Part shown: positions 1-55,050 of the stretch, piece by piece
Position numbering within the stretch: position 1 is the stretch's first letter
Layout: each line of letters opens with the position of its first letter
DNA from: Gammaproteobacteria bacterium
GTDB lineage: Bacteria > Pseudomonadota > Gammaproteobacteria > G965277405
Reading direction: 5' to 3'
Length of the DNA stretch: 64,000 nt
Assembly (NCBI GenBank): GCA_965277405.1
Contig: OZ255726.1
Coordinates: 1 to 64,000, forward strand
The notes under the pieces: generated by a model
Told to the model about the DNA's origin: nothing
The model's input: the letters and a program-made list of their open reading frames with translations, nothing else
Databases searched by the model: none
Position numbers and translations under genes: made by a program

Positions 1-3000
1 TTTGAGTAATATAAGTTTTAGTCTTTGTCTCAATTCTGTCATGGGAAATCAACTGCGAATAGCTCTTCGCCATCGCTAATGCTGCATCTACATTGACCAA
101 ACCAAAGCCATACCAATCGCTGTAATTAAGACCTGCCGCATTAGTAATCCAACCCCGACTAAATTGATAAGCGCCGCTACCTGGAATATCTGTAGTCACT
201 GTGTAGTCGGCATCAATTATCGTTGCTGTTTTCGCCAATATATACCGCACATCCCAAATAGTTAATGCTGGATGTTGCGAAAGTAACAACGCAACCGCGC
301 CACTGACAATTGCAGCCGCTGCGCGCGTACCGTGGAAAGTATTGGTGTAATTGCATGTTGGATCGTCATGGTGGAATTGGTTTGCTAAAACGTTACTTGC
401 TGCATTATCTGCTAACTCATGGTTACTATAACCCCTGCTACAGGAAGTTACATCTGTGGTGAACATTCCAGGTTCTCCAGCTAACATTCCAGGTTCTCCA
501 GCTGATGGACTACCTTGCTCGCCACCAAAACCACTCACCCAAATAGCCCCGGCTGCAGCATAGCTCGCGCGTTTCCCGAAGGCGTTGACTGCGCCAACAG
601 TGATGATCGGTAAGATGTCTTCCTTATCAAAACCAGCCAAGCCACAGCTCGTACCTATTACATTCGCTTGGCTGCATGCGTCACCATCACCAATATATGA
701 ATCGCCTGCAGGTTTAATAAAAATGACTCCTTTGCCGTTTCTGCCATCTTGAATCCTGCGCATGATTATTGCGTTGCTGCCAATTGCTGCGGTAGCTGGC
801 GTGCCGATGTGATCAAGGCGACTAGCTAGCTGGTCGCCTAAATACACAATATCGGCTTCAACTGCTGGGGAATCAGTGACACTGGGGTCGCCATCACCAA
901 CACTATATTGTAAATACGTGGCATTGCTATTGACACCAGCAGCCATATTGTTAAAGCCAAGCAATTTGGCTTTGGGTGCGACACCCAAGCCACCCATACC
1001 ATTATCTGCCATGGCAATCAAGCCAGCTATTGCTGTACCATGGTCGCCGTCACTACCCCTTGGGCTGGGATCGGTTGTTCCTGTCGCGGCATTAGGTTGC
1101 ATAAATGACCCTGTTGCAAAAGCATATCCTTGCCGAGGATCAATATTGTCAGCTAAATCAGGGTGGGTTATTTGCAAGCCAGTATCAACCACGCTCACCA
1201 ACGTTCCTTGACCGAGGCAGCCATCAGTGCGCCATGCACGTTGTAAGTTTAAATGGATGCTACTATCCATTTTGCTAGCATCCATGCCGGTGGCAATTTG
1301 ACCTTGTTGCCTACCATCTAAGTACCATTGATATTTTTCTAATGGATTGCTATCTGGTAACGATACAAGCGTGTCTGTATCACAATTTGAATTAACCGCT
1401 GTCATAAAAATAGTTGCTGTACTAACGGGGAAGTCCACCACATTAGATACATAACCCGAAACCACATATTCTGCTTTGCTTGCTACTATTGTTGGTGACC
1501 CTTGGATTGCACAGCTGTCGTTTGCCACAACTAGTGTCAAGCCAGCAGGTAGCGGCGGTGCTATGCTGCAACGAACAATTTCAACAGTGTTGACAAATTG
1601 CCATTGCTGCTGATTTTGGTATGTCAACATCGTCTGGGCAATTTTATCATCCATTTGCGGTAGCGCATAGATGGCGGTGATGAGGACGTCTGCACTGCTA
1701 TCACCAGCGGAATTTGACCCAGTAATAACGTAGTTGCTAGTTTGTGTTGCACTAACATTGTTGGGACTGCCATCAATTTGGCAGGTGCTGCGTCCATTGC
1801 CACCTACAGCTATATTCAGGGCTAAACCTGGCGGCAGCGGTGGTGTGGGGGTACAACTGGTCACATCACCACCATTGTTCTCAATTATTATGTGCTGAGG
1901 AATTCGATCACTGACTACAAACACCATTGCGGTATTGTTATATAATAATGCTGGTGCTTGATCATTGGCTGTTTGATCATTGGGTGTTTGATCATTGACA
2001 GTGATGCTATCGCGTAATGCTATAGACCTTCGCGACCTTGACCTTCGTTGCGGCTCTATTTGAGCACTTCGGGCACTCCGAGCACTGCGAGCACTCCGTT
2101 CAGGCTCTGAATCATATTGAGACTCTGAGACATAAGAATGACCGCGGAACGGATTCTCATATATACTGATGGGTATCGTTGCGTTGCTAAAGCCGCCAGA
2201 GTTGGTTCCAGTAATTATATATGTCTCTGTTGTATATCTTCCCATGCCTATGCCTAATATCTCGCAAGTATCATTCATTAGCCTAACTTCTAAACTTATT
2301 GGTAATGGAGTGCTTTCATCCGCCGAGCAGGATAGGACAGCACCACCGTTATTGATGAATGATGCAGTAGGGAATATTCCATATACCTGACCAGATTTAA
2401 CCGTTTCAAAACTAACCAAATCTGGTTTCTGATCATTCACAGTGATGATTATCGCTGCGCTGCTATCGCCGTCAGCGTTGCTTCCTTCAATGACATATGT
2501 CAGAGTTGAGTGTATCAACCTTGCTGTGCCTAATATCTGGCAAGTATTATTCCTTACCCTAACAGATAATCCAGCTGGTAATGGAGTGCTATTATCAATC
2601 CAGCATCTTGTTACAGCTCCGCCGTTATTGGTGAATGTAATAGGAGTTATGGCAATCCCTCTAGTCAAAACTTTATGGCGAGCATTAAGCAAAACTGGTG
2701 CATTATTATTCACAGTGATGTTTATTCCTGCGTTGCTATTGCCGCCGCTATTCGACGCAGTCACCGTGTAGGTGGTTGCCACTTGCAACTGCCTTGGTGT
2801 GCCAGCTAGCTGACACGTTGCTTTACCAGCTATGGCTCCAACAACAATATCCAAACCTGCAGGTAGCTGCGGTGAAATATCACAGCTTGTCACCGCACCG
2901 CCTGTATTGCCAAACAGCACGGGACTTGTTATCTGCATATTTGTTCTGAATATTTGGGGGTTTGGGCTTACTAACGCTGGGATATCATCAATCACCGTGA

Positions 3001-6000
3001 TGTTTATTGATGAAATGCTAGCGCCGACGGAATTGGACGCAGTCACCGTGTAGACGGTTGCAACTTGGCTCTGCGTTGCTGTGCCAGATAGCTGACACGT
3101 TGCTTTACCCGCTATGTCTCCAACAACAATATCCAAACCCAAAGGTAACTGCGGTGAAATATCACAGCTTGTCACCGTACCGCCTGTATTGCCAAACAGC
3201 ACGGGTAGTATCGTTGTGTTGATGGTAAATAGCTGTGGAGTTGGACTTACTAACGCTGGGATATTATCATTCACAGTGATGTTTATTCCTACGTTGTTTT
3301 CGCCGCCGCTATTAGAGGCAGTCACCGTATAGGCGGTTGCAACTTGCAACTGCCTTGCTGTGCCAGCTAGCTGACACGTTGCTTTACCCGCTATGTCTCC
3401 AACAACAATATCCAAACCTACAGGTAACTGCGGTGAAATATCACAGCTTGTCACCGCGCCGCCACTATTGCCAAACAGCACGGGTAGTATCGCTGTGTTG
3501 ATGGTGAATAGCTGTGGAGTTGGGCTTACTAACGCTGGGATAGCATCATTCACGGTGATGTTTATTCCTGTGTTGCTATTGCCGCCGCTATTAGCCGCAG
3601 TCACCGTGTAGGCGGTTGCAACTTGCAACTGCGTTGGTGTGCCAGCTAGCTGACACGTTGCTTTACCCGCGATGTCTCCAACAACAATATTCAAATCTAC
3701 AGGTAGCTGTGGTGAAACATCACAGCTTGTCACCGCGCCGCCACTATTGCCAAACAGCACGGGTAGTATCGCTGTGTTGATGGTGAATAGCTGTGGAGTT
3801 GGACTTGTTATCATTGGGATAGCATCGTTCAATACTTGGATATCATCGTTGACAGTGATGTTTATCTCTGCGCGGCTAGTGCCGACGCTATTGGACGCAG
3901 TCACCGTGTAGGTGGTTGCAACTTGGCTCTGCCTTGGTATGCCGGCAGATAGCTGACACGTTGCTGTACCCGCTATGTCTCCAACAACAATATCCAAACC
4001 TACAGGTAGCTGCGGTGAAATATCACAACTTGTTACAGCACCGCCTGTATTGCCAAACAGCACGGGTAGTATCGCTGTGTTTATAGTGAATATCTGTGGA
4101 GTTGGACTTGCTAACACTGGGATAGCATCAATCACCGCGATGTTTATTGATGAAATGCTAGCGCCGACGGAATTGACCGCAGTCACCGTGTAGCGTGTTG
4201 CAACTTGGCTCTGCGTTGCTGTGCCAGATAGCTGACACGTTGCTTTACCCGCTATGTCTCCAACAACAATATCCAAACCTACAGGTAGCTGCGGTGAAAT
4301 ATAACAGCTTGTTACCGCACCGCCTGTATTGCCAAACAGCACGGGTAGTATCGTTGTGTGTATGGTGAATATCTGTGGAGTTGGGCTTACTAACGCTGGG
4401 ATAGCATCAATCACGGTGATGATTATTCCTGCGTTGCTATCGCCGCCGCTATTAGCGGCATTCACCGTGTAGGCGGTTGCAACTTGCAACTGCGTTGGTG
4501 TGCCAGCTAGCTGACACGTTGCTTTACCAGCTATGTCTCCAACAACAATATCCAAACCTACAGGTAGCTGCGGTGAAACATCACAGCTTGTTACATTCCC
4601 ACCAGAATTGATAAAGTTCGCAGTTGGTATAGCTGTGTTGATGGTGAATGGCTGCAGGCTTGGACTCCCTATCTCTGGGATATTATCATTCACCATGATG
4701 TTTATTGATGAAATGCTATTGCCGCCGTTATTATACGCTGTCACTCTGTAGGCAGTTGCACCTTGCCTCTGCCTTGGTGTGCCAGATATCCGACACGTTG
4801 TATTACCAAAAACAGTTGCAACCGCGATTTGCAAATCAGGAGCTAGCCGTGGTGAAATAACACAGCGTGTTACTGCACCGCCTGTATTGCCAAAGTGCAC
4901 GGGTACTATCGTATTGTTTATGCTGAATACTAGTAGCCCAGTGTCTATGGTGGATATCCGTGGACTTTCTAACAATAGGGTATCATCAATAATCTCATTA
5001 AAGTTTATTGTAGCATTCATCACCGTGATGTTTATTGATGAAATGCTAGCGCCGACAGAATTGGACGCAGTCACCGTGTAGTCGGTTGCATTTTGTGGTA
5101 ACCGCGTTGGTGTGCCTGATAGCTGACACGTTGCTTTACCTGCTATGTCTCCAACTACAATATCCAAACCTACAGGTAGCTGCGGTGAAACATCACAGCT
5201 TGTCACCGCACCGCCTGTATTGCCAAACAGCACGGGTAGTATCGCTGTGTTGATGGTGAATATCTGTGGAGTTGGGCTTACTAACGCTGGGATAGCATCG
5301 TTGACAGTGATGTTTATCTCTGCGCGGCTAGTGCCGACGCTATTGGACGCAGTCACCGTGTAGGCGGTTGCAACTTGCAACTGCCTTGGTATGCCGGCAG
5401 CTAGCTGACACGTTGCTTTACCCGCTATGTCTCCAACTACAATATCCAAACCTACAGGTAGTTGCGGTGAAATATCACAGCTTGTCACCGCACCGCCTGT
5501 ATTGCCAAACAGCACGGGTAGTATCGCTGTGTGTATGGTGAATAGCTGTGGAGTTGGACTTGCTAACACTGGGATAGCTTCAATCACCGCGATGTTTATT
5601 GATGAAATGCTAGCGCCGACGGAATTGACCGCAGTCACCGTGTAGCGTGTTGCAACTTGGCTCTGCGTTGGTGTGCCAGCTAGCTGACACGTTGCTTTTC
5701 CCGCTATGTCTCCAACAACAATATCCAAACCTACAGGTAGCTGCGGTGAAACATCACAGCTTGTTACCGCGCCGCCTGTATTGCCAAACAGCACTGGTAG
5801 TATCGCTGTGTTGATAGTGAATATCTGTGGAGTTGGACTTGCTAACACTGGGATAGCATCAATCACCGCGATGTTTATTGATGAAATGCTAGCGCCGACG
5901 GAATTGACCGCAGTCACCGTGTAGCGTGTTGCAACTTGGCTCTGCGTTGCTGTGCCAGCTAGCTGACACGTTGCTTTACCCGCTATGTCTCCAACAACAA

Positions 6001-9000
6001 TATCCAAACCTACAGGTAACTGCGGTGAAATATAACAGCTTGTCACCGCCCCGCCTGTATTGCCAAAGAGCACGGGTAGTATCGTTGTGTGTATGGTGAA
6101 TAGCTGTGGAGTTGGGCTTGCTAACACTGGGATAGCATCGTTGACAGTGATGTTTATCTCTGCGCGGCTAGTGCCGACGCTATTGGACGCAGTCACCGTG
6201 TAGGCGGTTGCAACTTGCAACTGCCTTGGTATGCCGGCAGCTAGCTGACACGTTGCTGTACCCGCTATGTCTCCAACAACAATATCCAAACCTACAGGTA
6301 GCTGCGGTGAAATATCACAACTTGTTACAGCACCGCCTGTATTGCCAAACAGCACGGGTAGTATCGCTGTGTTGATAGTGAATAGCTGTGGAGTTGGACT
6401 TGCTAACACTGGGATAGCATCGTTGACAGTGATGTTTATCTCTGCGCGGCTAGTGCCGACGCTATTGGACGCAGTCACCGTGTAGGCGGTTGCAACTTGC
6501 AACTGCCTTGGTATGCCGGCAGATAGCTGACACGTTGCTGTACCCGCTATGTCTCCAACAACAATATCCAAACCTACAGGTAACTGCGGTGAAATATCAC
6601 AGCTTGTTACAGCACCGCCTGTATTGCCAAACAGCACGGGTAGTATCGCTGTGTTGATTGTGAATATCTGTGGAGTTGGACTTGCTAACACTGGGATAGC
6701 ATCGTTGACAGTGATGTTTATCTCTGCGCGGCTAGTGCCGACGCTATTGGACGCAGTCACCGTGTAGGCGGTTGCAACTTGCAACTGCCTTGGTATGCCG
6801 GCAGATAGCTGACACGTTGCTGTACCCGCTATGTCTCCAACAACAATATCCAAACCTACAGGTAACTGCGGTGAAATATCACAGCTTGTTACAGCACCGC
6901 CTGTATTGCCAAACAGCACGGGTAGTATCGCTGTGTTGATGGTGAATATCTGTGGAGTTGGGCTTACTAACGCTGGGATAGCATCGTTGACAGTGATGTT
7001 TATCTCTGCGCGGCTAGTGCCGACGCTATTGGACGCAGTCACCGTGTAGGCGGTTGCAACTTGCAACTGCCTTGGTATGCCGGCAGCTAGCTGACACGTT
7101 GCTGTACCCGCTATGTCTCCAACTACAATATCCAAACCTACAGGTAGCTGCGGTGAAACATCACAGCTTGTCACTGCCCCGCCTGTATTGCCAAACAGCA
7201 CGGGTAGTATCGCTGTGTGTATGGTGAATAGCTGTGGAGTTGGACTTGCTAACACTGGGATAGCATCGTTGACAGTGATGTTTATCTCTGCGCGGCTAGT
7301 GCCGACGCTATTGGACGCAGTCACCGTGTAGGCGGTTGCAACTTGCAACTGCCTTGGTATGCCGGCAGCTAGCTGACACGTTGCTTTACCCGCTATGTCT
7401 CCAACTACAATATCCAAACCTACAGGTAGCTGCGGTGAAACATCACAGCTTGTCACCGCACCGCCTGTATTGCCAAACAGCACGGGTAGTATCGCTGTGT
7501 GTATGGTGAATAGCTGTGGAGTTGGACTTGCTAACACTGGGATAGCAGCGTTCGCCACTTGGATATCATCATTCACGGTGATGTTTATCTCTGCGCGGCT
7601 TTCGCCGAGGCTATTGGACGCAGTCACCGTGTAGGTGGTTGCAACTTGCAACTGCGTTGGTGTACCTGATATTTGGCAACTAGATTCGTCTGGCGTTGGT
7701 TCAAATCTTAGCCCTTCAGGCCATACTGCGCGATTATTGCCCACTACCTCGCAGCTTGTTACAGCACCGCCAGTATTGTTAAAGCGCACGGGTCTTGGTA
7801 TCTGGATATTTTTTCTGAATGTTTGGGCAAGCTGGCTTGCTAAAACTGGGATGGCATCATACACAGTAATCCGTATCCCTGCGTGGCTATAGCCATCGCT
7901 ATTCGACGCAGTTACCGTATACACGATTGCAACTTTTAACTGCGTTGGTTTTCCTGATATCTGACACGTTGCTTTACCAGCTATGGCTCCAACAACAATA
8001 TCCAAACCTGCAGGTAGCCGTGGTGAAATTTCACAACTTGCCACCGCACCGCCAGTATTGCCAAACAACACAGGACTTGATATCTGGATATTTTTTCTGA
8101 ATGTTTGAGGGTTTGGGCTTACTAACGCTGGGATATCACCGATCAAAACTTGAATATCATCATTCACAGTGATGCTTATCGGTACGCGGTAGCTATCGCC
8201 GCGTTGATTGTACGCAGAGACAATATGCACGGATGTAACTTGCAACTGGGTTGGTGTGCCAGATATTTGGCAACTAGATTCGTCTGGCGTTGGCTCAAAG
8301 ATTAACCCTTCTGGCCATATTGCTCTATCAACTACACTGCATCTGGTTACAGCACCACCAGCGTTGCTCAAGCGCACTGGGGTTGTTATCCGTGTATATC
8401 TTTTAAATATTTGAGGGTTTGGGCTTATTAAATCTGGAGGGATATAATCCACAGTAATACTTATCCCTGCGCGGCTAACGCCGCCGCTATTGGATCCAGT
8501 CACCGTGTAGGTGGTTGCAATGTCTTGCCACTGCGTTGGTTTCCCAGATAGCTGACACGTTGCTTTCCCAGCTATAGCTCCAACAACAATATCCAAACCT
8601 GCAGGTAGCTGCGGTGAAACGTCACAGCTTGTCACCGCACCGCCTGTATTGCCAAACAGCACGGGACTTGTTATCTGCATATTTATTCTGAATGCTTGAG
8701 GGTTTGGACTTACTAACTCTGGGATATCATCGTTCAACACTGGAATATCATCGTTCAACACTGGGATAGCAGCAATCACCGCGATGTTTATTGATGAAAT
8801 GCTAGCGCCGCCGGAATTGGACGCAGTCACCGTGTAGGCGGTTGCCACTTGCAACTGCCTTGGTATGCCAGCTAGCTGACACGTTGCTTTACCCGCTATG
8901 TCTCCAACTACAATATCCAAACCTACAGGTAACTGCGGTGAAATATAACAGCTTGTCACCGCCCCGCCTGTATTGCCAAAGAGCACGGGTAGTATCGCTG

Positions 9001-10342
9001 TGCTGATAGTGAATATCTGTGGAGTTGGACTTGCTAACACTGGGATAGCATCGTTCAACACTTGGATATCATCGTTGACAGTGATGTTTATCTCTGCGCG
9101 GCTAGTACCGACGCTATTGGACGCAGACACCGTGTAGATGGATGCAGCTTGGCTCTGCCTTGGTATGCCAGATAGCTGACACGTTGCTTTACCAGCTATG
9201 TCGCCAACTACAATATCCAAACCTACAGGTAGCTGTGGTGAAACATCACAACTTGTCACGCCACCGCCAATGTTGTTAAAGAGCACGGGACTTGGTATCT
9301 GGATATTTTTGCTGAATATTTGGGGGCTTGGGCTTACTAAAACGGGGACATCATCGTTCAACACTTGGATATCATCATTGACAGTGATGTTTATCTCTGC
9401 GCGGCTAGTACCGTGGCTATTGGACGCAGTCACCGTGTAGGTGGTTGCAGCTTGGCTCTGCGTTGGTATGCCAGATAGCTGACACGTTGCTTTGCCCGCT
9501 ATGGCTCCAACAACCATATCCAAACCTACAGGTAGCTGTGGTGAAACATCACAGCTTGTCACGCCACCGCCAATGTTGTTAAAGAGCACTGGTGTTGGTA
9601 TCTGGATATTTTTTTTGAATGTTTGGGGGCTTGGGCTTACTAAAACGGGGATATCATCGTTCAACACTTGGATATCATCATTGACAGTGATGTTTATCTC
9701 TGCGCGGCTAACGCCGCCGCTATTGGACGCTGTCACCGTATACGTAGTTCTAGCTTGCAACTGCGTTGATGTTCCTATCATTAGACACGTTGTTGTATCA
9801 GATATGGTTGCAACAATAATATCTAAACCTGCAGGTAGCTGTGGTGAAATGTCACAGCGTGTCACGCCACCGCCAATGTTACTAAAGTTCACAGCCGGTA
9901 TTTTTTCGTCTTTTATGAAAATTTGCGCTGCAGGACTAAGAGGATTTGCTAGTTCTGTTGGTGTCCCAATTATTTGGATGTTGGGCTTTAACGGAACATT
10001 GATTCTGATCATTACATCGGCAGAAGAAACACCTAGAGAATTATAGGCAAGGACTGTAACTAGATCACCGCTGCTATCTGTAGTAGCATCAGGAGTTCCA
10101 AATATTTGGCATGTATCATTTGCTGCGCTTACTTGTAAATTAGCAGGCATATTTGCAGCAGTGCAAAATACAGCTGCACCACCAATATTAGCAATTTCTA
10201 AGGGGGGATCTATGGTAACGCCATTAGTAAATACAACTTCCGTGTTTGTTAATACAGGTTGTTCTATAACAAAATCTATTAAATCAACATCACTACAAGA
10301 TGTAAGTAGTAACAAAAAACTAACTGCTATGTGTTGCCACAT
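1..10342 (-). CDS. Giant lipoprotein A: ~28 (estimated) two-Cys Ig-like (He_PIG-like) repeats, polybasic linker, S8 kexin-like pseudo-peptidase; 3' end outside window
   Basis: Absent from the ORF track because it has no stop inside the window. ATG at 10342 reads MWQHIAVSFLLLLTSC (lipobox LTSC). All antisense shadow ORFs from 876 to 10161 share one frame, and the C-terminal HDRIETKTK at positions 43-17 is in frame with the start. S8 motifs VVDTG (1184-1186), HGT (1040-1042), KPAGD (701-703), HGTR (323-325). Confidence 0.9.
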   Translation of the reverse strand, partial: MWQHIAVSFLLLLTSCSDVDLIDFVIEQPVLTNTEVVFTNGVTIDPPLEIANIGGAAVFCTAANMPANLQVSAANDTCQIFGTPDATTDSSGDLVTVLAYNSLGVSSADVMIRINVPLKPNIQIIGTPTELANPLSPAAQIFIKDEKIPAVNFSNIGGGVTRCDISPQLPAGLDIIVATISDTTTCLMIGTSTQLQARTTYTVTASNSGGVSRAEINITVNDDIQVLNDDIPVLVSPSPQTFKKNIQIPTPVLFNNIGGGVTSCDVSPQLPVGLDMVVGAIAGKATCQLSGIPTQSQAATTYTVTASNSHGTSRAEINITVNDDIQVLNDDVPVLVSPSPQIFSKNIQIPSPVLFNNIGGGVTSCDVSPQLPVGLDIVVGDIAGKATCQLSGIPRQSQAASIYTVSASNSVGTSRAEINITVNDDIQVLNDAIPVLASPTPQIFTISTAILPVLFGNTGGAVTSCYISPQLPVGLDIVVGDIAGKATCQLAGIPRQLQVATAYTVTASNSGGASISSINIAVIAAIPVLNDDIPVLNDDIPELVSPNPQAFRINMQITSPVLFGNTGGAVTSCDVSPQLPAGLDIVVGAIAGKATCQLSGKPTQWQDIATTYTVTGSNSGGVSRAGISITVDYIPPDLISPNPQIFKRYTRITTPVRLSNAGGAVTRCSVVDRAIWPEGLIFEPTPDESSCQISGTPTQLQVTSVHIVSAYNQRGDSYRVPISITVNDDIQVLIGDIPALVSPNPQTFRKNIQISSPVLFGNTGGAVASCEISPRLPAGLDIVVGAIAGKATCQISGKPTQLKVAIVYTVTASNSDGYSHAGIRITVYDAIPVLASQLAQTFRKNIQIPRPVRFNNTGGAVTSCEVVGNNRAVWPEGLRFEPTPDESSCQISGTPTQLQVATTYTVTASNSLGESRAEINITVNDDIQVANAAIPVLASPTPQLFTIHTAILPVLFGNTGGAVTSCDVSPQLPVGLDIVVGDIAGKATCQLAAGIPRQLQVATAYTVTASNSVGTSRAEINITVNDAIPVLASPTPQLFTIHTAILPVLFGNTGGAVTSCDVSPQLPVGLDIVVGDIAGTATCQLAAGIPRQLQVATAYTVTASNSVGTSRAEINITVNDAIPALVSPTPQIFTINTAILPVLFGNTGGAVTSCDISPQLPVGLDIVVGDIAGTATCQLSAGIPRQLQVATAYTVTASNSVGTSRAEINITVNDAIPVLASPTPQIFTINTAILPVLFGNTGGAVTSCDISPQLPVGLDIVVGDIAGTATCQLSAGIPRQLQVATAYTVTASNSVGTSRAEINITVNDAIPVLASPTPQLFTINTAILPVLFGNTGGAVTSCDISPQLPVGLDIVVGDIAGTATCQLAAGIPRQLQVATAYTVTASNSVGTSRAEINITVNDAIPVLASPTPQLFTIHTTILPVLFGNTGGAVTSCYISPQLPVGLDIVVGDIAGKATCQLAGTATQSQVATRYTVTAVNSVGASISSINIAVIDAIPVLASPTPQIFTINTAILPVLFGNTGGAVTSCDVSPQLPVGLDIVVGDIAGKATCQLAGTPTQSQVATRYTVTAVNSVGASISSINIAVIEAIPVLASPTPQLFTIHTAILPVLFGNTGGAVTSCDISPQLPVGLDIVVGDIAGKATCQLAAGIPRQLQVATAYTVTASNSVGTSRAEINITVNDAIPALVSPTPQIFTINTAILPVLFGNTGGAVTSCDVSPQLPVGLDIVVGDIAGKATCQLSGTPTRLPQNATDYTVTASNSVGASISSINITVMNATINFNEIIDDTLLLESPRISTIDTGLLVFSINNTIVPVHFGNTGGAVTRCVISPRLAPDLQIAVATVFGNTTCRISGTPRQRQGATAYRVTAYNNGGNSISSINIMVNDNIPEIGSPSLQPFTINTAIPTANFINSGGNVTSCDVSPQLPVGLDIVVGDIAGKATCQLAGTPTQLQVATAYTVNAANSGGDSNAGIIITVIDAIPALVSPTPQIFTIHTTILPVLFGNTGGAVTSCYISPQLPVGLDIVVGDIAGKATCQLSGTATQSQVATRYTVTAVNSVGASISSINIAVIDAIPVLASPTPQIFTINTAILPVLFGNTGGAVTSCDISPQLPVGLDIVVGDIAGTATCQLSAGIPRQSQVATTYTVTASNSVGTSRAEINITVNDDIQVLNDAIPMITSPTPQLFTINTAILPVLFGNSGGAVTSCDVSPQLPVDLNIVVGDIAGKATCQLAGTPTQLQVATAYTVTAANSGGNSNTGINITVNDAIPALVSPTPQLFTINTAILPVLFGNSGGAVTSCDISPQLPVGLDIVVGDIAGKATCQLAGTARQLQVATAYTVTASNSGGENNVGINITVNDNIPALVSPTPQLFTINTTILPVLFGNTGGTVTSCDISPQLPLGLDIVVGDIAGKATCQLSGTATQSQVATVYTVTASNSVGASISSINITVIDDIPALVSPNPQIFRTNMQITSPVLFGNTGGAVTSCDISPQLPAGLDIVVGAIAGKATCQLAGTPRQLQVATTYTVTASNSGGNSNAGINITVNNNAPVLLNARHKVLTRGIAITPITFTNNGGAVTRCWIDNSTPLPAGLSVRVRNNTCQILGTARLIHSTLTYVIEGSNADGDSSAAIIITVNDQKPDLVSFETVKSGQVYGIFPTASFINNGGAVLSCSADESTPLPISLEVRLMNDTCEILGIGMGRYTTETYIITGTNSGGFSNATIPISIYENPFRGHSYVSESQYDSEPERSARSARSARSAQIEPQRRSRSRRSIALRDSITVNDQTPNDQTANDQAPALLYNNTAMVFVVSDRIPQHIIIENNGGDVTSCTPTPPLPPGLALNIAVGGNGRSTCQIDGSPNNVSATQTSNYVITGSNSAGDSSADVLITAIYALPQMDDKIAQTMLTYQNQQQWQFVNTVEIVRCSIAPPLPAGLTLVVANDSCAIQGSPTIVASKAEYVVSGYVSNVVDFPVSTATIFMTAVNSNCDTDTLVSLPDSNPLEKYQWYLDGRQQGQIATGMDASKMDSSIHLNLQRAWRTDGCLGQGTLVSVVDTGLQITHPDLADNIDPRQGYAFATGSFMQPNAATGTTDPSPRGSDGDHGTAIAGLIAMADNGMGGLGVAPKAKLLGFNNMAAGVNSNATYLQYSVGDGDPSVTDSPAVEADIVYLGDQLASRLDHIGTPATAAIGSNAIIMRRIQDGRNGKGVIFIKPAGDSYIGDGDACSQANVIGTSCGLAGFDKEDILPIITVGAVNAFGKRASYAAAGAIWVSGFGGEQGSPSAGEPGMLAGEPGMFTTDVTSCSRGYSNHELADNAASNVLANQFHHDDPTCNYTNTFHGTRAAAAIVSGAVALLLSQHPALTIWDVRYILAKTATIIDADYTVTTDIPGSGAYQFSRGWITNAAGLNYSDWYGFGLVNVDAALAMAKSYSQLISHDRIETKTKTYITQ
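2170..10250 (-). repeat. Intragenic tandem array of ~279-282-bp repeats (Ig-like units) of gene A
   Basis: Recurring unit PVLFGNTGGAVTSCDISPQLPVGLDIVVGDIAGKATCQL...YTVTASNS; shadow ORFs recur at ~280-bp spacing. Confidence 0.9.
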
Positions 10343-10715: not shown

Positions 10716-13700
10716 CTAATCTTGATGATATTTAATTACTAATTGCCATTGACTAAAGGTGTCATCGTGACTGTCTGCATAGTCAGTATTGTCATCTGCT
10801 ACAAAATCACCTGCTGCAAACAAATCCTTCACTGTTATTCTCCAATGACCTTGTATGCTTTCACCAAGAAATGCATGCACAGCTATGGGTTGCTGATAAC
10901 CTAGGTTAGCTTGAGTGTGTCCATTTCCTGCAGGATACGCCGGATACGATGTTCCTGCAGGCGATGTTAAAGATATTTCTATGTCTTGCAGCGCTGTTGT
11001 CGTTAGTTTAACAAATAGGTTGAGGTGGTCGATTTTGCCAGTTGCTGCAACGTATAGTTCCTTGCTAACACCATCGCTATTTTTATTCGGTACAAGCATG
11101 GGTACAAAAGTATGATTTTTGGTAATTGTCTCAATTCTGTCATGGGAAATCAACTGCGAATAGCTCTTCGCCATCGCTAATGCTGCATCTACATTGACCA
11201 AACCAAAGCCATACCAATCGCTGTAATTAAGACCTGCCGCATTAGTAATCCAACCCCGACTAAATTGATAAGCGCCGCTACCTGGAATATCTGTAGTCAC
11301 TGTGTAGTCGGCATCAATTATCGTTGCTGTTTTCGCCAATATATACCGCACATCCCAAATAGTTAATGCTGGATGTTGCGAAAGTAACAACGCAACCGCG
11401 CCACTGACAATTGCAGCCGCTGCGCGCGTACCGTGGAAAGTATTGGTGTAATTGCATGTTGGATCGTCATGGTGGAATTGGTTTGCTAAAACGTTACTTG
11501 CTGCATTATCTGCTAACTCATGGTTACTATAACCCCTGCTACAGGAAGTTACATCTGTGGTGAACATTCCAGGTTCTCCAGCTAACATTCCAGGTTCTCC
11601 AGCTGATGGACTACCTTGCTCGCCACCAAAACCACTCACCCAAATAGCCCCGGCTGCAGCATAGCTCGCGCGTTTCCCGAAGGCGTTGACTGCGCCAACA
11701 GTGATGATCGGTAAGATGTCTTCCTTATCAAAACCAGCCAAGCCACAGCTCGTACCTATTACATTCGCTTGGCTGCATGCGTCACCATCACCAATATATG
11801 AATCGCCTGCAGGTTTAATAAAAATGACTCCTTTGCCGTTTCTGCCATCTTGAATCCTGCGCATGATTATTGCGTTGCTGCCAATTGCTGCGGTAGCTGG
11901 CGTGCCGATGTGATCAAGGCGACTAGCTAGCTGGTCGCCTAAATACACAATATCGGCGTCAACTGCTGGGGAATCTGTGGCACTGGGGTCGCCATCACCA
12001 ACACTATATTGTAAATATGTGGCATTGCTATTGACACCAGCAGCCATATTGTTAAAGCCAAGCAATTTGGCTTTGGGTGCGACACCCAAGCCACCCATAC
12101 CATTATCTGCCATGGCAATCAAGCCAGCTATTGCTGTACCATGGTCGCCGTCACTACCCCTTGGGCTGGGATCGGTTGTTCCTGTCGCGGCATTAGGTTG
12201 CATAAATGACCCTGTTGCAAAAGCATATCCTTGCCGAGGATCAATATTGTCAGCTAAATCAGGGTGGGTTATTTGCAAGCCAGTATCAACCACGCTCACC
12301 AACGTTCCTTGACCGAGGCAGCCATCAGTGCGCCATGCACGTTGTAAGTTTAAATGGATGCTACTATCCATTTTGCTAGCATCCATGCCGGTGGCAATTT
12401 GACCTTGTTGCCTACCATCTAAGTACCATTGATATTTTTCTAATGGATTGCTATCTGGTAACGATACAAGCGTGTCTGTATCACAATTTGAATTAACCGC
12501 TGTCATAAAAATAGTTGCTGTACTAACGGGGAAGTCCACCACATTAGATACATAACCCGAAACCACATATTCTGCTTTGCTTGCTACTATTGTTGGTGAC
12601 CCTTGGATTGCACAGCTGTCGTTTGCCACAACTAGTGTCAAGCCAGCAGGTAGCGGCGGTGCTATGCTGCAACGAACAATTTCAACAGTGTTGACAAATT
12701 GCCATTGCTGCTGATTTTGGTATGTCAACATCGTCTGGGCAATTTTATCATCCATTTGCGGTAGCGCATAGATGGCGGTGATGAGGACGTCTGCACTGCT
12801 ATCACCAGCGGAATTTGACCCAGTAATAACGTAGTTGCTAGTTTGTGTTGCACTAACATTGTTGGGACTGCCATCAATTTGGCAGGTGCTGCGTCCATTG
12901 CCACCTACAGCTATATTCAGGGCTAAACCTGGCGGCAGCGGTGGTGTGGGGGTACAACTGGTCACATCACCACCATTGTTCTCAATTATTATGTGCTGAG
13001 GAATTCGATCACTGACTACAAACACCATTGCGGTATTGTTATATAATAATGCTGGTGCTTGATCATTGGCTGTTTGATCATTGGGTGTTTGATCATTGAC
13101 AGTGATGCTATCGCGTAATGCTATAGACCTTCGCGACCTTGACCTTCGTTGCGGCTCTATTCGTGCACTTCTAGCACTCCGTTGAGGATTTGAAGCATAA
13201 GAACGTCCAGATAACGGATTCTCATATATTTCGATGAGTACCGTTGCGCGACTTTCGCCGCGGCTATTGGACCCAGTCACCATATACGTAGTTGTTACTC
13301 GCAACTGCGTTGGTGTGCCAGATATCTGGCACGTTGCTTTACCATCGATGGCTCCAACAACAATATCCAAACCTGCAGGTAGCTGCGGTGCAACGTCACA
13401 GCTTCCCACCGCACCACCTGTGTTGCTAAAATTCATAACTAGCAGCGCGTTGATGGCGAATCGCTGCAGGGTTGGACTTACTAACTCTGGGATATTATCA
13501 TTCACAGTGATGCTTATTGATGACATGCTACGGCCGCCGCTATTAGACGCAGTCACCCTATAGGAGGTTGTAACTTGCCTCTGCCTTGGTGTGCCAGATA
13601 TCTGACACGTTGGTTTACGTAAAATAATTGGAACTTTACCTAAAATAGTTGCAACCGCGATTTGTAAATCACCAGGTAGCTGTGGTGAAATATAACATCT

Positions 13701-16700
13701 TGTCACAGCACCGCCTATATTGCCAAAGCGCACGGGTAGTATCGCTGTGTTTATGGTGAATACTAGTGACCCTGTGTTTATGGTGAATATCCGTGGACTT
13801 GCTAACACTGGGATCTCATCAATCACCTCGATGTTTATTGATGAAATGCTAGTGCCGCCACTATTAGACGCAGTCACCGTGTAGACGGTTGCAACTCGGC
13901 TCTGCGTTGGCGTTCCTGTTATCTGACAAGTTGCTTTACCATAAAAAGTGCCAAGAACAATATCTAAACCAAAAGGTAGCTGCGGTGCAATATCACAGCT
14001 TGTTACCGCACCGCCTAAATTGCCAATGTGCACGGGTCGTATCGCTGTGTTTACGGTGAATCGTATTAACCCTGTGTTCTGGGTGTATATCTGCGGGATA
14101 TTATCATTCACCGTGATGCTGATATCTGCGCTGCTAGTGCCGCCGCTATTCGTCGCGGTGATGGTATACGTTATCGGTTCTTCTTGCAGTACGGTTGGAG
14201 TGCCTGTTAGCTGACAAGTTGCTGGATCTGCTATGGTGGCAAGCTGCAAGTCACTAGGTAGCGGTGCTGAAACGCCACAGCTTGTCACCGCACCGCCTGT
14301 GTTGCCAAAATCAACAGCTGCTATCGCTGTGTTGATGGTGTATATCCGCGGGCTGGGGGTTGCTAGCGCTGGGATATTATCGTTCACCGTGATGCTGATA
14401 TCTGCGCTGCTAGTGCCGCCGCTATTCGTCGCTGTTATTGTATACGTTATCGGTTCTTCTTGCAGTACGGTTGGAGTGCCTGTTAGCTGACAAGTTGCTG
14501 GATCTGCTATGGTGGCAAGCTGCAAACCACCAACTAGCGGCGGTACAACGCCACAGCTGGTTACCGCACCGCCTGCGTTGCCAAAATCAACAGCTGCTAT
14601 CGGCGTGTTGATGGTGTATATCCGCGGGCTGGGGGTTGCTAGCGCTGGGATATTATCGTTCACCGTGATGCTGATATCGGCGCTGCTAGTGCCGCCGCTA
14701 TTCGTCGCGGTGATGGTATACGTTATCGGTTCTTCTTGCAGTACGGTTGGAGTGCCTGTTAGCTGACAAGTTGCTGGATCTGCTATGGTGGCAAGCTGCA
14801 AGTCACTAGGTAGCGGTGCTGAAACGCCACAGCTTGTTACCGCACCGCCTGCGTTGCCAAAATCAACAGCTGCTATCGGTGTGTTGATGGTGTATATCCG
14901 CGGGCTTGGATTTACTAGCGCTGGGATATTATCGTTCACCGTGATGCTGATATCTGCGCTGCTAGTGCCGCCGCTATTCGACGCTGTGATTGTATACGTT
15001 GCCTCTTCTTCATGCAGTGCGGTTGGGGTTCCTGTTATTTGGCAACTAGCTCCGTCTGGCGTTTTCTTAAGTGTTAAACCATCAGGCCATGCTGCGCTAT
15101 TATCCCCGACTACTTCGCAACTTGTCACCGCACCGCCTGTGTTGCCAAAATCAACAGCTGCTATCGGCGTGTTGATGGTGTATATCCGCGGGCTTGGATT
15201 TACTAGCGCTGGGATATTATCGTTCACCGTGATGCTGATATCTGCGCTGCTAGTGCCGCCGCTATTCGTCGCGGTGATTGTATACGTTATCGGTTCTTCT
15301 TGCAGTCGGTTGGAGTGCCTGTTTCTGACAAGTTGCTGGATCTGCTATGGTGGCAAGCTGCAAACCACCTAGGTAGCTGCTAAACATCACAGCTTGTTAC
15401 CGCACCGCCTGTTGCCAAAATCAACAGCTGCTACATAGTTGCTGGATCTGCTAGCTGCGCTGGTGGCAAGCTGCAAACCACTGTTAGCTGGCAACTAGCG
15501 GGCGCTTAAGTGTTAAACATCACAGCTTGTTACCGCACCGCCTGCACCACCTGTGTTGCCAAAATCAACAGCTGCTATCGGTGTGTTGATGGTGTATATC
15601 CGCGGGCTTGGGGTTGCTAGCGCTGGGATATTATCGTTCACCGTGATGCTGATATCTGCGCTGCTAGTGCCGCCGCTATTCGTCGCGGTGATGGTATACG
15701 TTATCGGTTCTTCTTGCAGTACGGTTGGAGTGCCTGTTAGCTGACAAGTTGCTGGATCTGCTACGGTGGCAAGCTGCAAGTCACTAGGTAGCGGTGCTGA
15801 AACGCCACAGCTTGTTACCGCACCGCCTGCGTTGCCAAAATCAACAGCTGCTATCGGCGTGTTGATGGTGTATATCCGCGGGCTGGGGGTTGCTAGCGCT
15901 GGGATATTATCATTCACCGTGATGCTGATATCGGCGCTGCTAGTGCCGCCGCTATTCGTCGCGGTGATGGTATACGTTATCGGTTCTTCTTGCAGTACGG
16001 TTGGAGTGCCTGTTAGCTGACAAGTTGCTGGATCTGCTATGGTGGCAAGCTGCAAGTCACTAGGTAGCGGTGCTGAAACGCCACAGCTTGTCACCGCACC
16101 GCCTGTGTTGCCAAAATCAACAGCTGCTATCGCTGTGTTGATGGTGTATATCCGCGGGCTGGGGGTTGCTAGCGCTGGGATATTATCGTTCACCGTGATG
16201 CTGATATCTGCGCTGCTAGTGCCGCCGCTATTCGTCGCTGTTATTGTATACGTTATCGGTTCTTCTTGCAGTACGGTTGGAGTGCCTGTTAGCTGACAAG
16301 TTGCTGGATCTGCTATGGTGGCAAGCTGCAAACCACCAACTAGCGGCGGTACAACGCCACAGCTGGTTACCGCACCGCCTGCGTTGCCAAAATCAACAGC
16401 TGCTATCGGCGTGTTGATGGTGTATATCCGCGGGCTGGGGGTTGCTAGCGCTGGGATATTATCGTTCACCGTGATGCTGATATCGGCGCTGCTAGTGCCG
16501 CCGCTATTCGTCGCGGTGATGGTATACGTTATCGGTTCTTCTTGCAGTACGGTTGGAGTGCCTGTTAGCTGACAAGTTGCTGGATCTGCTATGGTGGCAA
16601 GCTGCAAGTCACTAGGTAGCGGTGCTGAAACGCCACAGCTTGTTACCGCACCGCCTGCGTTGCCAAAATCAACAGCTGCTATCGGTGTGTTGATGGTGTA

Positions 16701-54102: not shown

Positions 54103-55050
54103 ATGAAACAAACAACTTTTGCCAGTGCTGCATACGACCACAAGAAAGTAACAACAAAACGTGAAAAATTCTTGCAGTTAATGGACAAATTAGCTCCATG
54201 GCAACAGTTGTTAGAGTTAATAGAACCGCATTATCCCAAGAAAGGGAATGGCCGCCCACCGATTAATATGCAGACCATGTTACGCATTTATTTTTTACAG
54301 CAATGGTACAACTTATCAGACCCAGGGGTAGAAGAAGCACTATATGACATGGAAAGCATGCGGCGTTTTGCCCATATAGAGCTGATAGACGATGCCATCC
54401 CTGATGAAACCACCATCTTGAACTTCCGCAGGATCATAGAAAAACATCAACTCAGCGTCAAGATACTTGCTGTCGTGAATGAGTATTGTATGGAAAATAA
54501 TATAATAATCTCACAAGGGACAATGGTTGATGCCACGACCATCAATGCGCCATCATCTACGAAGAATAAAGAGAAAAAACGGGATCCTGAAATGCATCAA
54601 ACCCGCAAAGGCAATCAGTGGTATTTTGGCATGAAGATTCATATAGGAACTGACGCTAATAGTAATATGATTCATAGCGCGACAGTTACAGCCGCGAATG
54701 AAGCTGACATCAATGAACTCCCCAAATTGCTGCGTGAAACAGATAAGGTTATCTTTGCCGATGCAGGATATACGAGCGACAGTTATAAACGCGGCTCGCG
54801 TCACCTTGGGATAGATTGGCGCGTGAATGATAAACGTAAACCAAAGCAGCAAATGAGCACCTCGCAGCGCAAACGCAATAGACAGAACTCTAAGGTGCGC
54901 GCCCGGATTGAGCACTGTTTTCGGGTAATCAAATGTCAGTTTGGTTATAAGAAAGCTCGCTACAAAGGACTAGAAAAGAATCGAGTACAAGTATTTTCTT
55001 TGCTTGCATTGACGAACTTATACATGCTGCGAGGACGACTAACAGGATAG
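54103..55050 (+). CDS. IS5 DDE transposase
   Basis: MLRIYFLQQWYNLSD, PDETTILNFR, VDAT, RDPEMHQT.KGNQWYFGMK.H, ADAGY, RARIEH.F. Confidence 0.95.
   Translation: MKQTTFASAAYDHKKVTTKREKFLQLMDKLAPWQQLLELIEPHYPKKGNGRPPINMQTMLRIYFLQQWYNLSDPGVEEALYDMESMRRFAHIELIDDAIPDETTILNFRRIIEKHQLSVKILAVVNEYCMENNIIISQGTMVDATTINAPSSTKNKEKKRDPEMHQTRKGNQWYFGMKIHIGTDANSNMIHSATVTAANEADINELPKLLRETDKVIFADAGYTSDSYKRGSRHLGIDWRVNDKRKPKQQMSTSQRKRNRQNSKVRARIEHCFRVIKCQFGYKKARYKGLEKNRVQVFSLLALTNLYMLRGRLTG

What the first reader, a model, noticed from the sequence alone, without database searches (positions are those of the whole stretch)
301..1200. S8 active site is dismantled: nucleophile Ser->Arg plus other substitutions, in both paralogs
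Seen: Asp (VVDTG) and His (HGT) are retained. The GTS.A.P motif reads HGTRAAAA (codon CGC at 323-325 and 11424-11426), the oxyanion AGN reads PAGD, and the N.S.G strand reads IVYLGD. The surrounding sequence (CNYT...GW.TNAAG...YGFGL) resembles Aeromonas ASP-type kexin-like proteases. Several independent changes argue for an evolved pseudoenzyme rather than a base-calling error. Inference: it could act as a trap or receptor for basic peptides or protease inhibitors, and the Arg could plug its own pocket.
Basis: partly seen in the sequence, partly recalled or inferred. Interest (0 to 1): 0.8.

Follow-up and report, generated by a model that had tools for sequence, protein, structure and literature searches.

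The report
Dead kexin-like protease on giant surface proteins
Four giant repeat-rich surface lipoproteins of an uncultured bacterium each end in a subtilisin/kexin-type protease domain whose catalytic serine and two other active-site residues have been replaced, so it is most likely a non-cutting binding or structural module, a modestly unusual case of a known phenomenon.

Summary
On the minus strand, two giant genes end in an S8 plus P-domain module closest to the Aeromonas protease ASP (PDB 3hjr, E 3e-54). Asp and His are kept. The nucleophile Ser is Arg, the oxyanion Asn is Asp, and the N-x-S-x-G strand reads Y-L-G-D-Q.

Those three invariant residues (Ser, Asn, Ser) are present in 70 of 70 aligned homologues. 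The genome holds four such copies, not two. The most diverged copy (79% identical) spells the Arg CGA instead of CGC. Contigs of three public runs show no other letter at the codon, so a base-calling error is excluded.

An intact 663-aa ASP-like lipoprotein in the same genome is the sister of the dead copies, which points to duplication followed by inactivation.

The frame is kept open: 2 of 5000 neutral simulations stay stop-free. The S8 part has dN/dS 0.62, and the P-domain about 1.3. Protein change is no faster than in the active paralogue.

All copies sit at the C-terminus of He_PIG-repeat lipoproteins of up to about 9,570 residues.

My best reading is a non-catalytic head or cap of a fibrillar surface protein. 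The "basic-peptide trap" and "Arg plugs its own pocket" ideas remain untested. This is a new variant of the known subtilase pseudoproteases and is of moderate interest.

The parts
2..10342 (-). Giant gene w1. It encodes 3447 aa from the Met with lipobox LLLTSC. The 3' end runs off the contig start, and the last part of its P-domain lies at the other end of the contig.
11..1399 (-). Pseudo-S8 (ASP/kexin-like) domain of w1. It is 99% identical to the w2 copy over residues 1-463 of the 594-aa query.
323..325 (-). CGC = Arg in place of the nucleophile Ser (HGTRAAAA), copy w1
   Evidence: aligned to ASP Ser336
701..703 (-). GAT = Asp in place of the oxyanion-hole Asn (KPAGD), copy w1
830..844 (-). 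Y-L-G-D-Q in place of the N-x-S-x-G substrate-binding strand, copy w1
1040..1042 (-). Retained His (DHGT), copy w1
1184..1186 (-). Retained Asp (VVDTG), copy w1
10716..15227 (-). Gene part w2 (1503 aa from GTG): He_PIG repeats, Arg/Ser-rich linker, two Ig-like units, pseudo-S8 and P-domain, then stop
11244..12314 (-). Pfam Peptidase_S8 match of w2 (residues 972-1328 of P0002, E 5.6e-25)
11424..11426 (-). CGC = Arg in place of the nucleophile Ser, copy w2. Contigs of 3 runs show no other letter here.
11802..11804 (-). GAT = Asp in place of the oxyanion Asn, copy w2
10806..11030 (-). Pfam P_proprotein (P-domain) match of w2 (residues 1400-1474, E 5.4e-09)
13119..13187 (-). Arg/Ser-rich linker PQRSARSARIEPQRRSRSRRSIA. 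It is present in w1, w2 and the 597-kb copy and absent from the 147-kb copy.
15228..15512 (-). Scrambled stretch with stops in all three frames, lying between the 2975-aa ORF and w2. It is either a real break or a mis-assembly inside the repeats.
15513..24440 (-). 2975-aa ORF with lipobox (MWKHIAVCFLLLLTSC) and He_PIG repeats. It is probably the N-terminal part of the same gene as w2.

Best explanation
The region encodes a catalytically dead descendant of an ASP/kexin-type subtilase (S8 domain plus P-domain). It arose within this lineage by duplication of an active ASP-like lipoprotein gene. It now forms the C-terminal end of four giant lipoproteins built from He_PIG immunoglobulin-like repeats.

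Shown:
- the fold and the family;
- the loss of the nucleophile (Ser to Arg), the oxyanion Asn (to Asp) and the substrate-strand Ser (to Gly);
- the sister relation to the intact paralogue;
- maintenance of the open frame.

Inferred:
- The N-terminal lipid anchor and a repeat stalk of up to about 90 units place this module at the distal tip of a fibrillar surface protein.
- There the former substrate cleft, remodelled by the Arg/Asp pair, serves as a binding head or a stable cap and does not cut.
- The fast-changing P-domain and the cleft-side loops differ between paralogues, which would give them different specificities.
For: **Fold and family**
- Pfam finds S8, P-domain and He_PIG.
- The best PDB sequence match is ASP 3hjr, E 3.3e-54, over residues 12-560 of 594.
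- The AlphaFold2 model has pLDDT 85.8 and pTM 0.92. Its best Foldseek matches are 3hjr and 3wqb, then furin and Kex2.

**Dead site**
- S188, N233 and S359 are each present in 70 of 70 homologues. They are G, D and R in all four copies.
- Of 238 domain instances covering the four catalytic columns, 224 read D-H-N-S. D-H-D-R occurs only in this organism's 6 rows.

**Not an error**
- The Arg codon is CGC in three copies and CGA in the fourth.
- Contigs from 3 runs agree at the codon.

**Origin**
- The pseudo copies form a clade (SH-aLRT 100). It is sister to the genome's own intact 663-aa paralogue (100) in a 61-row tree.
- That paralogue is the best non-self hit among 1.84 billion representatives, at 47% identity.

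**Maintenance**
- Copy w2 and the 147-kb copy differ at 243 nucleotides and 7 indel blocks, all in frame. Only 2 of 5000 neutral simulations stay free of stops.
- dN/dS of the S8 part is 0.62, CI 0.44-0.91.
- Protein change is no faster than in the active paralogue: 8 relative-rate tests give p 0.17-0.76.
- The 597-kb copy is one uninterrupted frame of 9576 codons.

**Surface context**
- Lipobox sequences are present.
- All 125 He_PIG matches in the genome lie in these four loci.
- A GspD secretin scores above the family cut-off.

**Recurrence**
- Other dead ASP-like domains exist: P0112 (5 tandem units), P0209 (1 of 3 units) and P0221.
- P0221 carries He_PIG, D-H-D-G and FHGTGAAAA. The data reject it as part of the same clade, AU p 0.002.
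Against: - Constraint is weak by the standard of enzymes. Overall dN/dS is 0.84 (CI 0.61-1.10). The P-domain gives 1.28 (CI 0.79-2.05), which cannot be told from neutrality.
- dS varies from 0.04 to 0.36 along the domain. This implies gene conversion, which blurs these estimates.
- Two of the four genes are interrupted upstream in this assembly: w2 and the 147-kb copy. Database proteins from other assemblies are also short, at 1370 and 2520 aa. Some copies may therefore be off or decaying.
- No ligand is known and no binding was shown.
- Surface exposure of the lipoproteins is inferred, not shown.
- Many relatives carry repeats plus an intact S8, so a stalk does not in itself call for a dead protease.
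Confidence: 0.6

Rival explanations
1. The module is an inert relic. The protease domain lost activity and is carried along only because it lies at the end of repeat genes that are themselves useful. It has no ligand and no role of its own.
For: Overall dN/dS is 0.84 and the P-domain gives about 1.3. Two of the four genes are interrupted upstream. The D and H residues are retained, which fits a recent loss.
Against: The frame is open in all four copies although 7.5 stops are expected under neutrality; 2 of 5000 simulations stay stop-free. The S8 part has dN/dS significantly below 1. There is no rate acceleration against the active paralogue. The model is confident. A C-terminal relic could be lost through a single stop without harming the stalk, yet none of the four copies has lost it.
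Confidence: 0.18
2. The module is an export, folding or capping device. The ASP fold is kept because the secretion route of the ancestral lipoprotein protease (for example type II secretion) recognises it, or because it caps the repeat stalk. Inactivation protects the long stalk from self-cleavage.
For: The active paralogue is itself a lipoprotein. A GspD secretin is present. The core of the S8 fold is the best conserved part: 23 differences in 210 high-confidence positions.
Against: No evidence links ASP-like folds to secretion recognition here. Many homologues combine repeats with an intact protease, so self-cleavage is evidently tolerable. The variable P-domain and loops fit a ligand-facing surface better than a conserved secretion signal does.
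Confidence: 0.15
3. The domain still cuts, using another nucleophile or a water activated by the retained Asp-His pair.
For: Asp and His are kept in all four copies. A Ser follows the Asp of PAGDS, and a Thr precedes the Arg.
Against: The nucleophile, the oxyanion Asn and the substrate-strand Ser are all replaced. The flanking Thr is the family's own conserved residue: T358 is present in 70 of 70 homologues. Ser after the oxyanion residue also occurs in active relatives. I know of no S8 enzyme that works without the Ser (recalled, not searched exhaustively).
Confidence: 0.04
4. The Arg codon is a sequencing or assembly error.
For: None found.
Against: Four copies carry Arg, with CGC in three and CGA in one. 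Two further database proteins from other assemblies also have R. Contigs of 3 runs, at word depths of about 76, 885 and 19, show no other letter at 11424-11426. These come from one study and are possibly the source sample. Two other active-site changes accompany the Arg.
Confidence: 0.01

Closest known systems
ASP, the Aeromonas sobria serine protease (PDB 3hjr; complex with chaperone ORF2, 3wqb), a kexin-like S8 enzyme
   Same: It is the best sequence match (E 3.3e-54) and the best fold match. It has the same S8 plus P-domain layout and no propeptide. The Cys pairs and the CNYT, GW.TNAAG and YGFGL motifs are conserved. Asp78 and His115 align with the retained Asp and His.
   Different: ASP is an active secreted protease of about 600 residues with Ser336 (PMC5638518, passages read). 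Here Ser336 is Arg, the oxyanion Asn is Asp and the strand Ser is Gly. The module sits at the end of proteins of thousands of residues. The 228-aa ORF downstream of the intact paralogue matched no ORF2 chain in the PDB by sequence, and no small ORF follows the two dead copies outside the window.
CspC and CspA of Clostridioides difficile, subtilisin-like pseudoproteases
   Same: They are S8-family domains with substituted catalytic residues that are kept for a non-catalytic role beside an active paralogue, CspB (PMC7200643, abstract and passages read).
   Different: The Csp proteins are soluble spore proteins with prodomains. They are not of the kexin/ASP subfamily and have no P-domain or repeat stalk. 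CspC has Thr for His and Gly for Ser, whereas here His is kept and Ser is Arg. Their function as germinant signalling proteins has no counterpart here.
Fibrillar adhesins (stalk of repeats plus a terminal adhesive domain)
   Same: These proteins have a long tandem array of Ig-like repeats, an anchor at one end and a different globular domain at the other (PMC9210967 and PMC8286594; passages of the first read, listing only for the second). PMC9210967 notes a P_proprotein-like cluster whose best structural hit was 3HJR among domains of ambiguous, possibly catalytic, function.
   Different: No paper found by my searches describes a dead kexin/ASP-type protease as the terminal domain. Adhesion is not shown here.
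Repeat-bearing active ASP-like proteases in marine metagenomes (e.g. P0015, P0025, P0028 with He_PIG + S8 + P-domain)
   Same: Same domain order, and the same subfamily (31-36% identical).
   Different: They keep GTS and AGN motifs. They are mostly about 900-1200 residues long, not 3,400 to 9,600.

Membership tests
Peptidase family S8 (subtilases), as a homologue | Significant match to the S8 profile and the subtilisin fold | tested here: met
   PF00082 E 5.6e-25, 88.7 bits against a cut-off of 21.8. Foldseek matches to ASP, furin, Kex2 and subtilisins.
Peptidase family S8, as an active peptidase | Catalytic triad Asp-His-Ser | tested here: not met
   Asp and His are present. Ser is replaced by Arg in all four copies, while 70 of 70 homologues have Ser.
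Peptidase family S8, as an active peptidase | Oxyanion-hole Asn | tested here: not met
   Asp stands in place of an Asn that 70 of 70 homologues have. I recall that proprotein convertase 2 carries Asp here and is active. That is from memory, not from a call.
Kexin/ASP subfamily (S8B-like) | P-domain directly after the catalytic domain | tested here: met
   PF01483 E 5.4e-09 at residues 1400-1474. The alignment to ASP runs through the P-domain.
Kexin/ASP subfamily (S8B-like) | Cleavage after basic residues | not testable with these tools
   The Asp of the TTD motif is retained; this column is Asp in 215 of 238 domains. Its role in the S1 pocket is recalled from furin, not shown here.
ASP-type operon | Downstream chaperone gene (ORF2) | tested here: inconclusive
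   A 228-aa exported ORF overlaps the end of the intact paralogue but has no sequence match to any PDB chain at E <= 0.01. No small ORF follows the two dead copies outside the window. The ends of the two window copies were not examined for one.
Csp-type pseudoproteases | Clostridial spore context, retained prodomain, pairing with CspB | tested here: not met
   The subfamily, architecture and organism type all differ. Only the general principle is shared.
Fibrillar adhesins | Tandem stalk repeats | tested here: met
   He_PIG E 8.6e-39 in w2. There are 125 He_PIG matches in the genome, all in the four loci.
Fibrillar adhesins | Cell-surface anchor | tested here: inconclusive
   Lipobox-like N-termini were read by eye: LLLTSC in w1, in the 2975-aa ORF and in the 597-kb copy, and ITSC upstream of the 147-kb copy. 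No signal-peptide predictor was run and localisation is unknown.
Fibrillar adhesins | Terminal domain that binds a target | not testable with these tools
   Inferred from position only.

The most novel reading that the evidence does not exclude
The Ser-to-Arg and Asn-to-Asp pair is a purposeful remodelling. It turns a kexin-like cleft, with its S1 Asp kept, into a non-cutting recognition pocket. One possibility is a pocket for peptide ends produced by the genome's own active ASP-like lipoprotein or by host convertases; another is an anionic ligand held by the new Arg. Giant stalks would then display a 'frozen protease' as their adhesive head, with the P-domain and cleft loops diversifying among paralogues to change the target. 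A similar D-H-D-x site (FHGTGAAAA, AGD) in an unrelated He_PIG protein (P0221) would then be convergent evolution of the same device.
Probability: 0.12. Interest if true: 0.7.

Novelty: new variant of a known kind. Interest (0 to 1): 0.42.

Why it matters
Subtilase pseudoproteases are known from very few studied cases, chiefly the Csp germination proteins. This locus offers a kexin/ASP-type example with three useful features:

- a clear origin, because the active parent gene is still in the same genome;
- an unusual substitution pair, an Arg at the nucleophile position next to an Asp at the oxyanion position;
- a defined cellular setting, the end of lipoproteins that together take up about 3% of a 2.17-Mb genome.

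If the module proves to be a binding head, it would add "dead protease" to the list of adhesive tip domains. It would also give a natural active/inactive pair for studying how a protease cleft is converted into a receptor. If it is inert, it is just one more non-peptidase homologue.

Tried and rejected
- **Complex prediction.** I ran a complex prediction of the S8-P module with the 48-residue Arg/Ser-rich linker of the same protein. The result was no verdict (score 0.00, controls not run), so it says nothing either way. The linker idea is also weakened because the 147-kb copy lacks the linker.
- **RNA evidence.** No RNA holder was listed among the sequencing runs, so expression is unknown.
- **Named genomes.** The genome-contig scan for relatives, tried in order to name the organism, found none.
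- **Relatives.** Among 40 relatives searched, all only 'same class', 3 had matches, all weak or partial. The best was E 4.5e-14, to a different RTX-type protein with GTS intact.
- **ORF2-like chaperone.** The 228-aa ORF downstream of the intact paralogue gave no PDB sequence match.
- **ASP structure papers.** PMC2785694 and PMC4409271 are not held. The S1 and S2 residues of ASP could therefore not be taken from print.
- **Model geometry.** No coordinates of the model are given to the script box. I could not check the geometry of the Arg, a possible Arg-Asp salt bridge, or an alternative nucleophile.
- **Single origin with P0221.** This is rejected by the AU test, p 0.0021, but I named the group after seeing the tree.
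- **Earlier scan notes.** Searches by words and by sequence gave nothing.
- **Rows dropped.** One search left out 18 hits that covered fewer than 450 query residues. The tree used 61 of the 230 domain rows that filled at least 70% of the profile. These were my own selection of the top hits plus the odd cases.
Full report
**What is there.**
The finding's coordinates lie in the 3' part of a huge minus-strand ORF, window 2..10342 (3447 aa, running off the contig start). A second ORF, 10716..15227 (1503 aa), ends in almost the same sequence.

Pfam finds three things in the second protein:
- He_PIG repeats, E 8.6e-39, 7 stretches;
- a Peptidase_S8 domain at residues 972-1328, E 5.6e-25;
- a proprotein-convertase P-domain at residues 1400-1474, E 5.4e-09.

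NCBIfam gives no equivalog. The mycosin model scores 73.5 bits against a cut-off of 278.75.

**Check of the observation.**
HMMER against all PDB chain sequences gives 51 distinct sequences at E <= 1e-5. The best is the Aeromonas sobria serine protease ASP (3hjr_A), E 3.3e-54, aligned over residues 12-560 of the 594-aa module. Furin, mirolase and Kex2 follow.

Counting along the printed alignment:
- ASP Asp78 aligns with the D of VVDTG;
- ASP His115 aligns with the H of DHGT;
- ASP Ser336 aligns with the R of HGTRAAAA.

PMC5638518 names D78, H115 and S336 as the ASP triad (passages read).

CGC lies at 323-325 and 11424-11426. GAT for the Asp of PAGD lies at 701-703 and 11802-11804. The Tyr of IVYLGD lies at 842-844 and 11943-11945.

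I cut the S8-P region out of the hits and aligned 75 rows. Eighteen hits covering fewer than 450 query residues were left out. Among the 70 rows that are not copies of this pseudo-domain:
- the nucleophile column is Ser in 70 of 70;
- the oxyanion column is Asn in 70 of 70;
- the substrate-strand column is Ser in 70 of 70;
- the flanking columns are Asn in 64 of 70 and Gly in 62 of 70.

The window's protein has R, D, G, Y and Q at these columns. Of 17 columns invariant in the 70 rows, only these three differ. Of 95 columns conserved at 85% or more, 16 differ. The changes are therefore concentrated on the catalytic machinery, while the fold-defining glycines and the rest are kept.

**More copies, and one intact parent.**
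The window is the first 64 kb of a single 2.17-Mb contig with 44.8% G+C. A six-frame search of this genome finds the module five times:

| Copy | Position | Identity to w2 | Open frame |
|---|---|---|---|
| w1 | window | 99% | 3457 codons, cut by contig start |
| w2 | window | query | 1542 codons |
| 597-kb copy | 596928-598709 | 99% | 9576 codons |
| 147-kb copy | 147110-148888 | 79% | 2700 codons |
| intact paralogue | 1801418-1803217 | 47% | 689 codons |

- The first four all read D-H-...-D-...-R. The 79% copy spells the Arg CGA, not CGC.
- The fifth is a 663-aa lipoprotein-like protein with everything intact: VVDNG, SHGT, NQS, AAGN, GTSAATP, with Ser codon TCG.

**Frequency of the dead site.**
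I searched the 594-aa module against 1.84 billion cluster representatives. This gave 11,814 proteins at E <= 0.001 and 519 at E <= 1e-30. Above 47% identity there are only two records, at 100% and 79%, shown without a source. The next hit is the genome's own intact paralogue at 47%.

I then surveyed all stored hits:
- There are 255 domain rows in 234 proteins, and 238 rows cover the four catalytic columns.
- Of these, 224 read D-H-N-S.
- Six rows read D-H-D-R, all from this organism.
- Eight rows in four other proteins are non-canonical.
  - P0112 has five tandem S8-P units that have all lost the Asp and the Ser.
  - P0209 has one dead unit out of three.
  - P0221 reads D-H-D-G.
  - P0140 has a partial N-terminal unit.

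**Not an error.**
Four lines of evidence exclude a base-calling error:
- four copies carry the Arg with two different codons;
- three changes occur together;
- database records from other assemblies also have the Arg;
- Logan contigs of three runs cover 11424-11426 with no other letter, at word depths of about 76, 885 and 19.

The three runs belong to one study and may be the source sample, so they are not independent. They do, however, rest on reads.

**Origin.**
The tree has 61 rows and 538 columns and was built with IQ-TREE under LG+G4 in quick mode. The rows are my selection of top hits plus the odd cases, taken from 230 eligible rows.
- The four dead copies form one group, SH-aLRT 100.
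- They join the intact paralogue of the same genome, SH-aLRT 100.
- These then join two metagenome proteins, P0006 and P0099, SH-aLRT 99. P0006 keeps GTS and its oxyanion Asn (SNG); P0099 falls among the canonical rows of the survey.

The simplest reading is a duplication of an active ASP-like lipoprotein gene within this lineage, followed by loss of the active site. The root is not known.

P0221 carries He_PIG, AGD and FHGTGAAAA, which is a strikingly similar local pattern. It nevertheless falls elsewhere in the tree. Forcing it together with the dead copies costs 125 log-likelihood units, AU p 0.0021. I named that group after seeing the tree. The likeness looks convergent.

**Is the module maintained?**
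Evidence for maintenance:
- Copy w2 and the 147-kb copy differ at 243 of 1734 aligned nucleotides and by 7 indel blocks, all in frame. With the same number of random substitutions, 7.5 stops are expected, and only 2 of 5000 simulations stay open.
- The S8 part has dN/dS 0.62, bootstrap CI 0.44-0.91.
- Relative-rate counts against four outgroups show no excess change in the dead lineage over the active paralogue. For example, 56 against 47 unique changes with P0006. Eight tests give p 0.17-0.76.
- The AlphaFold2 model from a 51-row alignment is confident, with pLDDT 85.8 and pTM 0.92. The helix that carries the Arg scores about 98.
- The 597-kb gene is one open frame of 9576 codons.

Evidence against strong constraint:
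- Overall dN/dS is 0.84 (CI 0.61-1.10).
- The P-domain gives 1.28 (CI 0.79-2.05). It has 62 differences in 144 residues, against 81 in 450 for the S8 part.
- dS ranges from 0.04 to 0.36 along the module, a sign of gene conversion between paralogues. The ratios are therefore rough.
- Two of the four genes are interrupted upstream. A stretch of about 285 bases at 15228-15512 has stops in all frames and separates w2 from a 2975-aa ORF that carries the lipobox. The 147-kb copy is out of frame with a 1111-aa lipobox ORF.
- I cannot tell real breaks, possibly on-off switching in repeats, from assembly errors.

**Context.**
- The N-termini read MW[QK]HIAV.FLLLLTSC, which is lipobox-like by eye. No predictor was run.
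- All 125 He_PIG matches of the genome lie in these four loci. Together the loci span about 64 kb.
- A type II secretin is present: GspD model, 486 bits, above the cut-off.
- The rest of the window holds housekeeping genes, including pyruvate dehydrogenase, the glycine cleavage system and ABC transporters.
- The GTDB relatives offered are only 'same class'. I did not check that.

**How it most likely works.**
Shown:
- an ASP-type fold with a dismantled catalytic site;
- derivation from an active paralogue;
- an open frame kept under mild purifying selection;
- a position at the C-terminus of lipobox-bearing repeat giants.

Inferred: with the lipid at the N-terminus and tens of Ig-like repeats as a stalk, the module is the far end of a fibrillar surface protein. 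There it would bind something or cap the fibre without cutting.
- The new Arg next to the new Asp may form a charge pair filling the former oxyanion site. This is inference only, because I had no coordinates.
- The Asp of the conserved TTD motif is kept (215 of 238 domains have it). I recall it as the S1 Asp of furin. A basic side chain, or the module's own Arg, could still be accommodated there.
- The parts that differ most between paralogues are the P-domain, which in ASP contributes an occluding region at the cleft entrance (PMC5638518, passages read), and the loop at residues 295-345. That pattern would suit a changing specificity, but it is equally what relaxed constraint gives.

**Comparison with what is known.**
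- By homology the module is an S8 family member of the kexin/ASP branch, but it fails the tests for an active peptidase.
- The nearest studied analogues in principle are CspC and CspA of C. difficile. These are S8 pseudoproteases working beside the active CspB, and restoring their triad did not restore activity (PMC7200643, abstract and passages read). They belong to another branch, have prodomains and lack both P-domain and stalk.
- Fibrillar-adhesin surveys list stalk and tip domains. They mention a P_proprotein-like cluster of unclear role (PMC9210967, passages read).
- My three literature searches found no description of a dead kexin/ASP-type domain on such proteins. The library is limited to open-access papers.
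- Repeat-bearing relatives with an intact site are common in metagenomes.

**Verdict.**
- The pseudoenzyme reading is supported. The proposed trap mechanism is untested.
- This is a new variant of a known kind, the subtilase pseudoprotease.
- It is of moderate interest, mainly as a clean natural active/inactive pair and as a possible new type of adhesin head.

Noticed in passing
genome G000:C1:1801406-1803397 (minus), outside the window; locus L005: An intact 663-aa ASP-like lipoprotein (D, H, N and S all present). It is the sister of the dead copies. A 228-aa exported ORF (1800733-1801419) overlaps its stop by 14 bases, in the position of ASP's chaperone gene, but has no sequence match to any PDB chain.
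   Followed up: partly
genome G000:C1:697486-699564 (minus); locus L007: A 693-aa protein with a Big_2 domain, a weak P-domain match (E 0.00098) and a much more degenerate S8-like stretch. It has no HGT motif, reads HSCSADVIGAV at the nucleophile helix, and keeps NAAGYTYSQIDGFG. It looks like a second, older dead subtilase.
   Followed up: partly
window 15228-15512 and genome about 140789-140844: Two of the four giant genes are interrupted between the lipobox-bearing N-terminal ORF and the rest. In the window the break is a scrambled repeat unit with the duplication GNTGGAGGAVTSCDV. This could be assembly error in repeats or real on-off variation.
   Followed up: partly
window 1-30 and genome end 2174326-2174577: The single contig begins and ends inside the same giant gene. 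About 47 codons of the P-domain are missing between the two ends, and simple joining gives a frameshift.
   Followed up: partly
window 13119-13187 (and the same in w1 and the 597-kb copy): An Arg/Ser-rich linker with variable SAR repeats and an RRSRSRRS run lies about 230 residues upstream of the S8-P module. It is full of dibasic sites of the kind kexin-like enzymes cut. It is absent from the 147-kb copy.
   Followed up: partly
protein P0112 (3332 aa, metagenome): It has five tandem S8 plus P-domain units, all lacking the catalytic Asp (Gly instead) and Ser (Glu or Asp instead). This is an array of dead kexin-like domains in one protein.
   Followed up: partly
window 54103-55050 (+): An IS5-type DDE transposase ORF (PF01609, DUF772). 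An S24 peptidase/HTH repressor-like ORF lies at 57143-57832, among housekeeping genes.
   Followed up: no
w2 residues about 297-311 of the 594-aa module (window about 11570-11610): A 7-residue tandem duplication, AGEPGML AGEPGMF, sits in a cleft-side loop. It is present in the three near-identical copies and single in the 147-kb copy.
   Followed up: no
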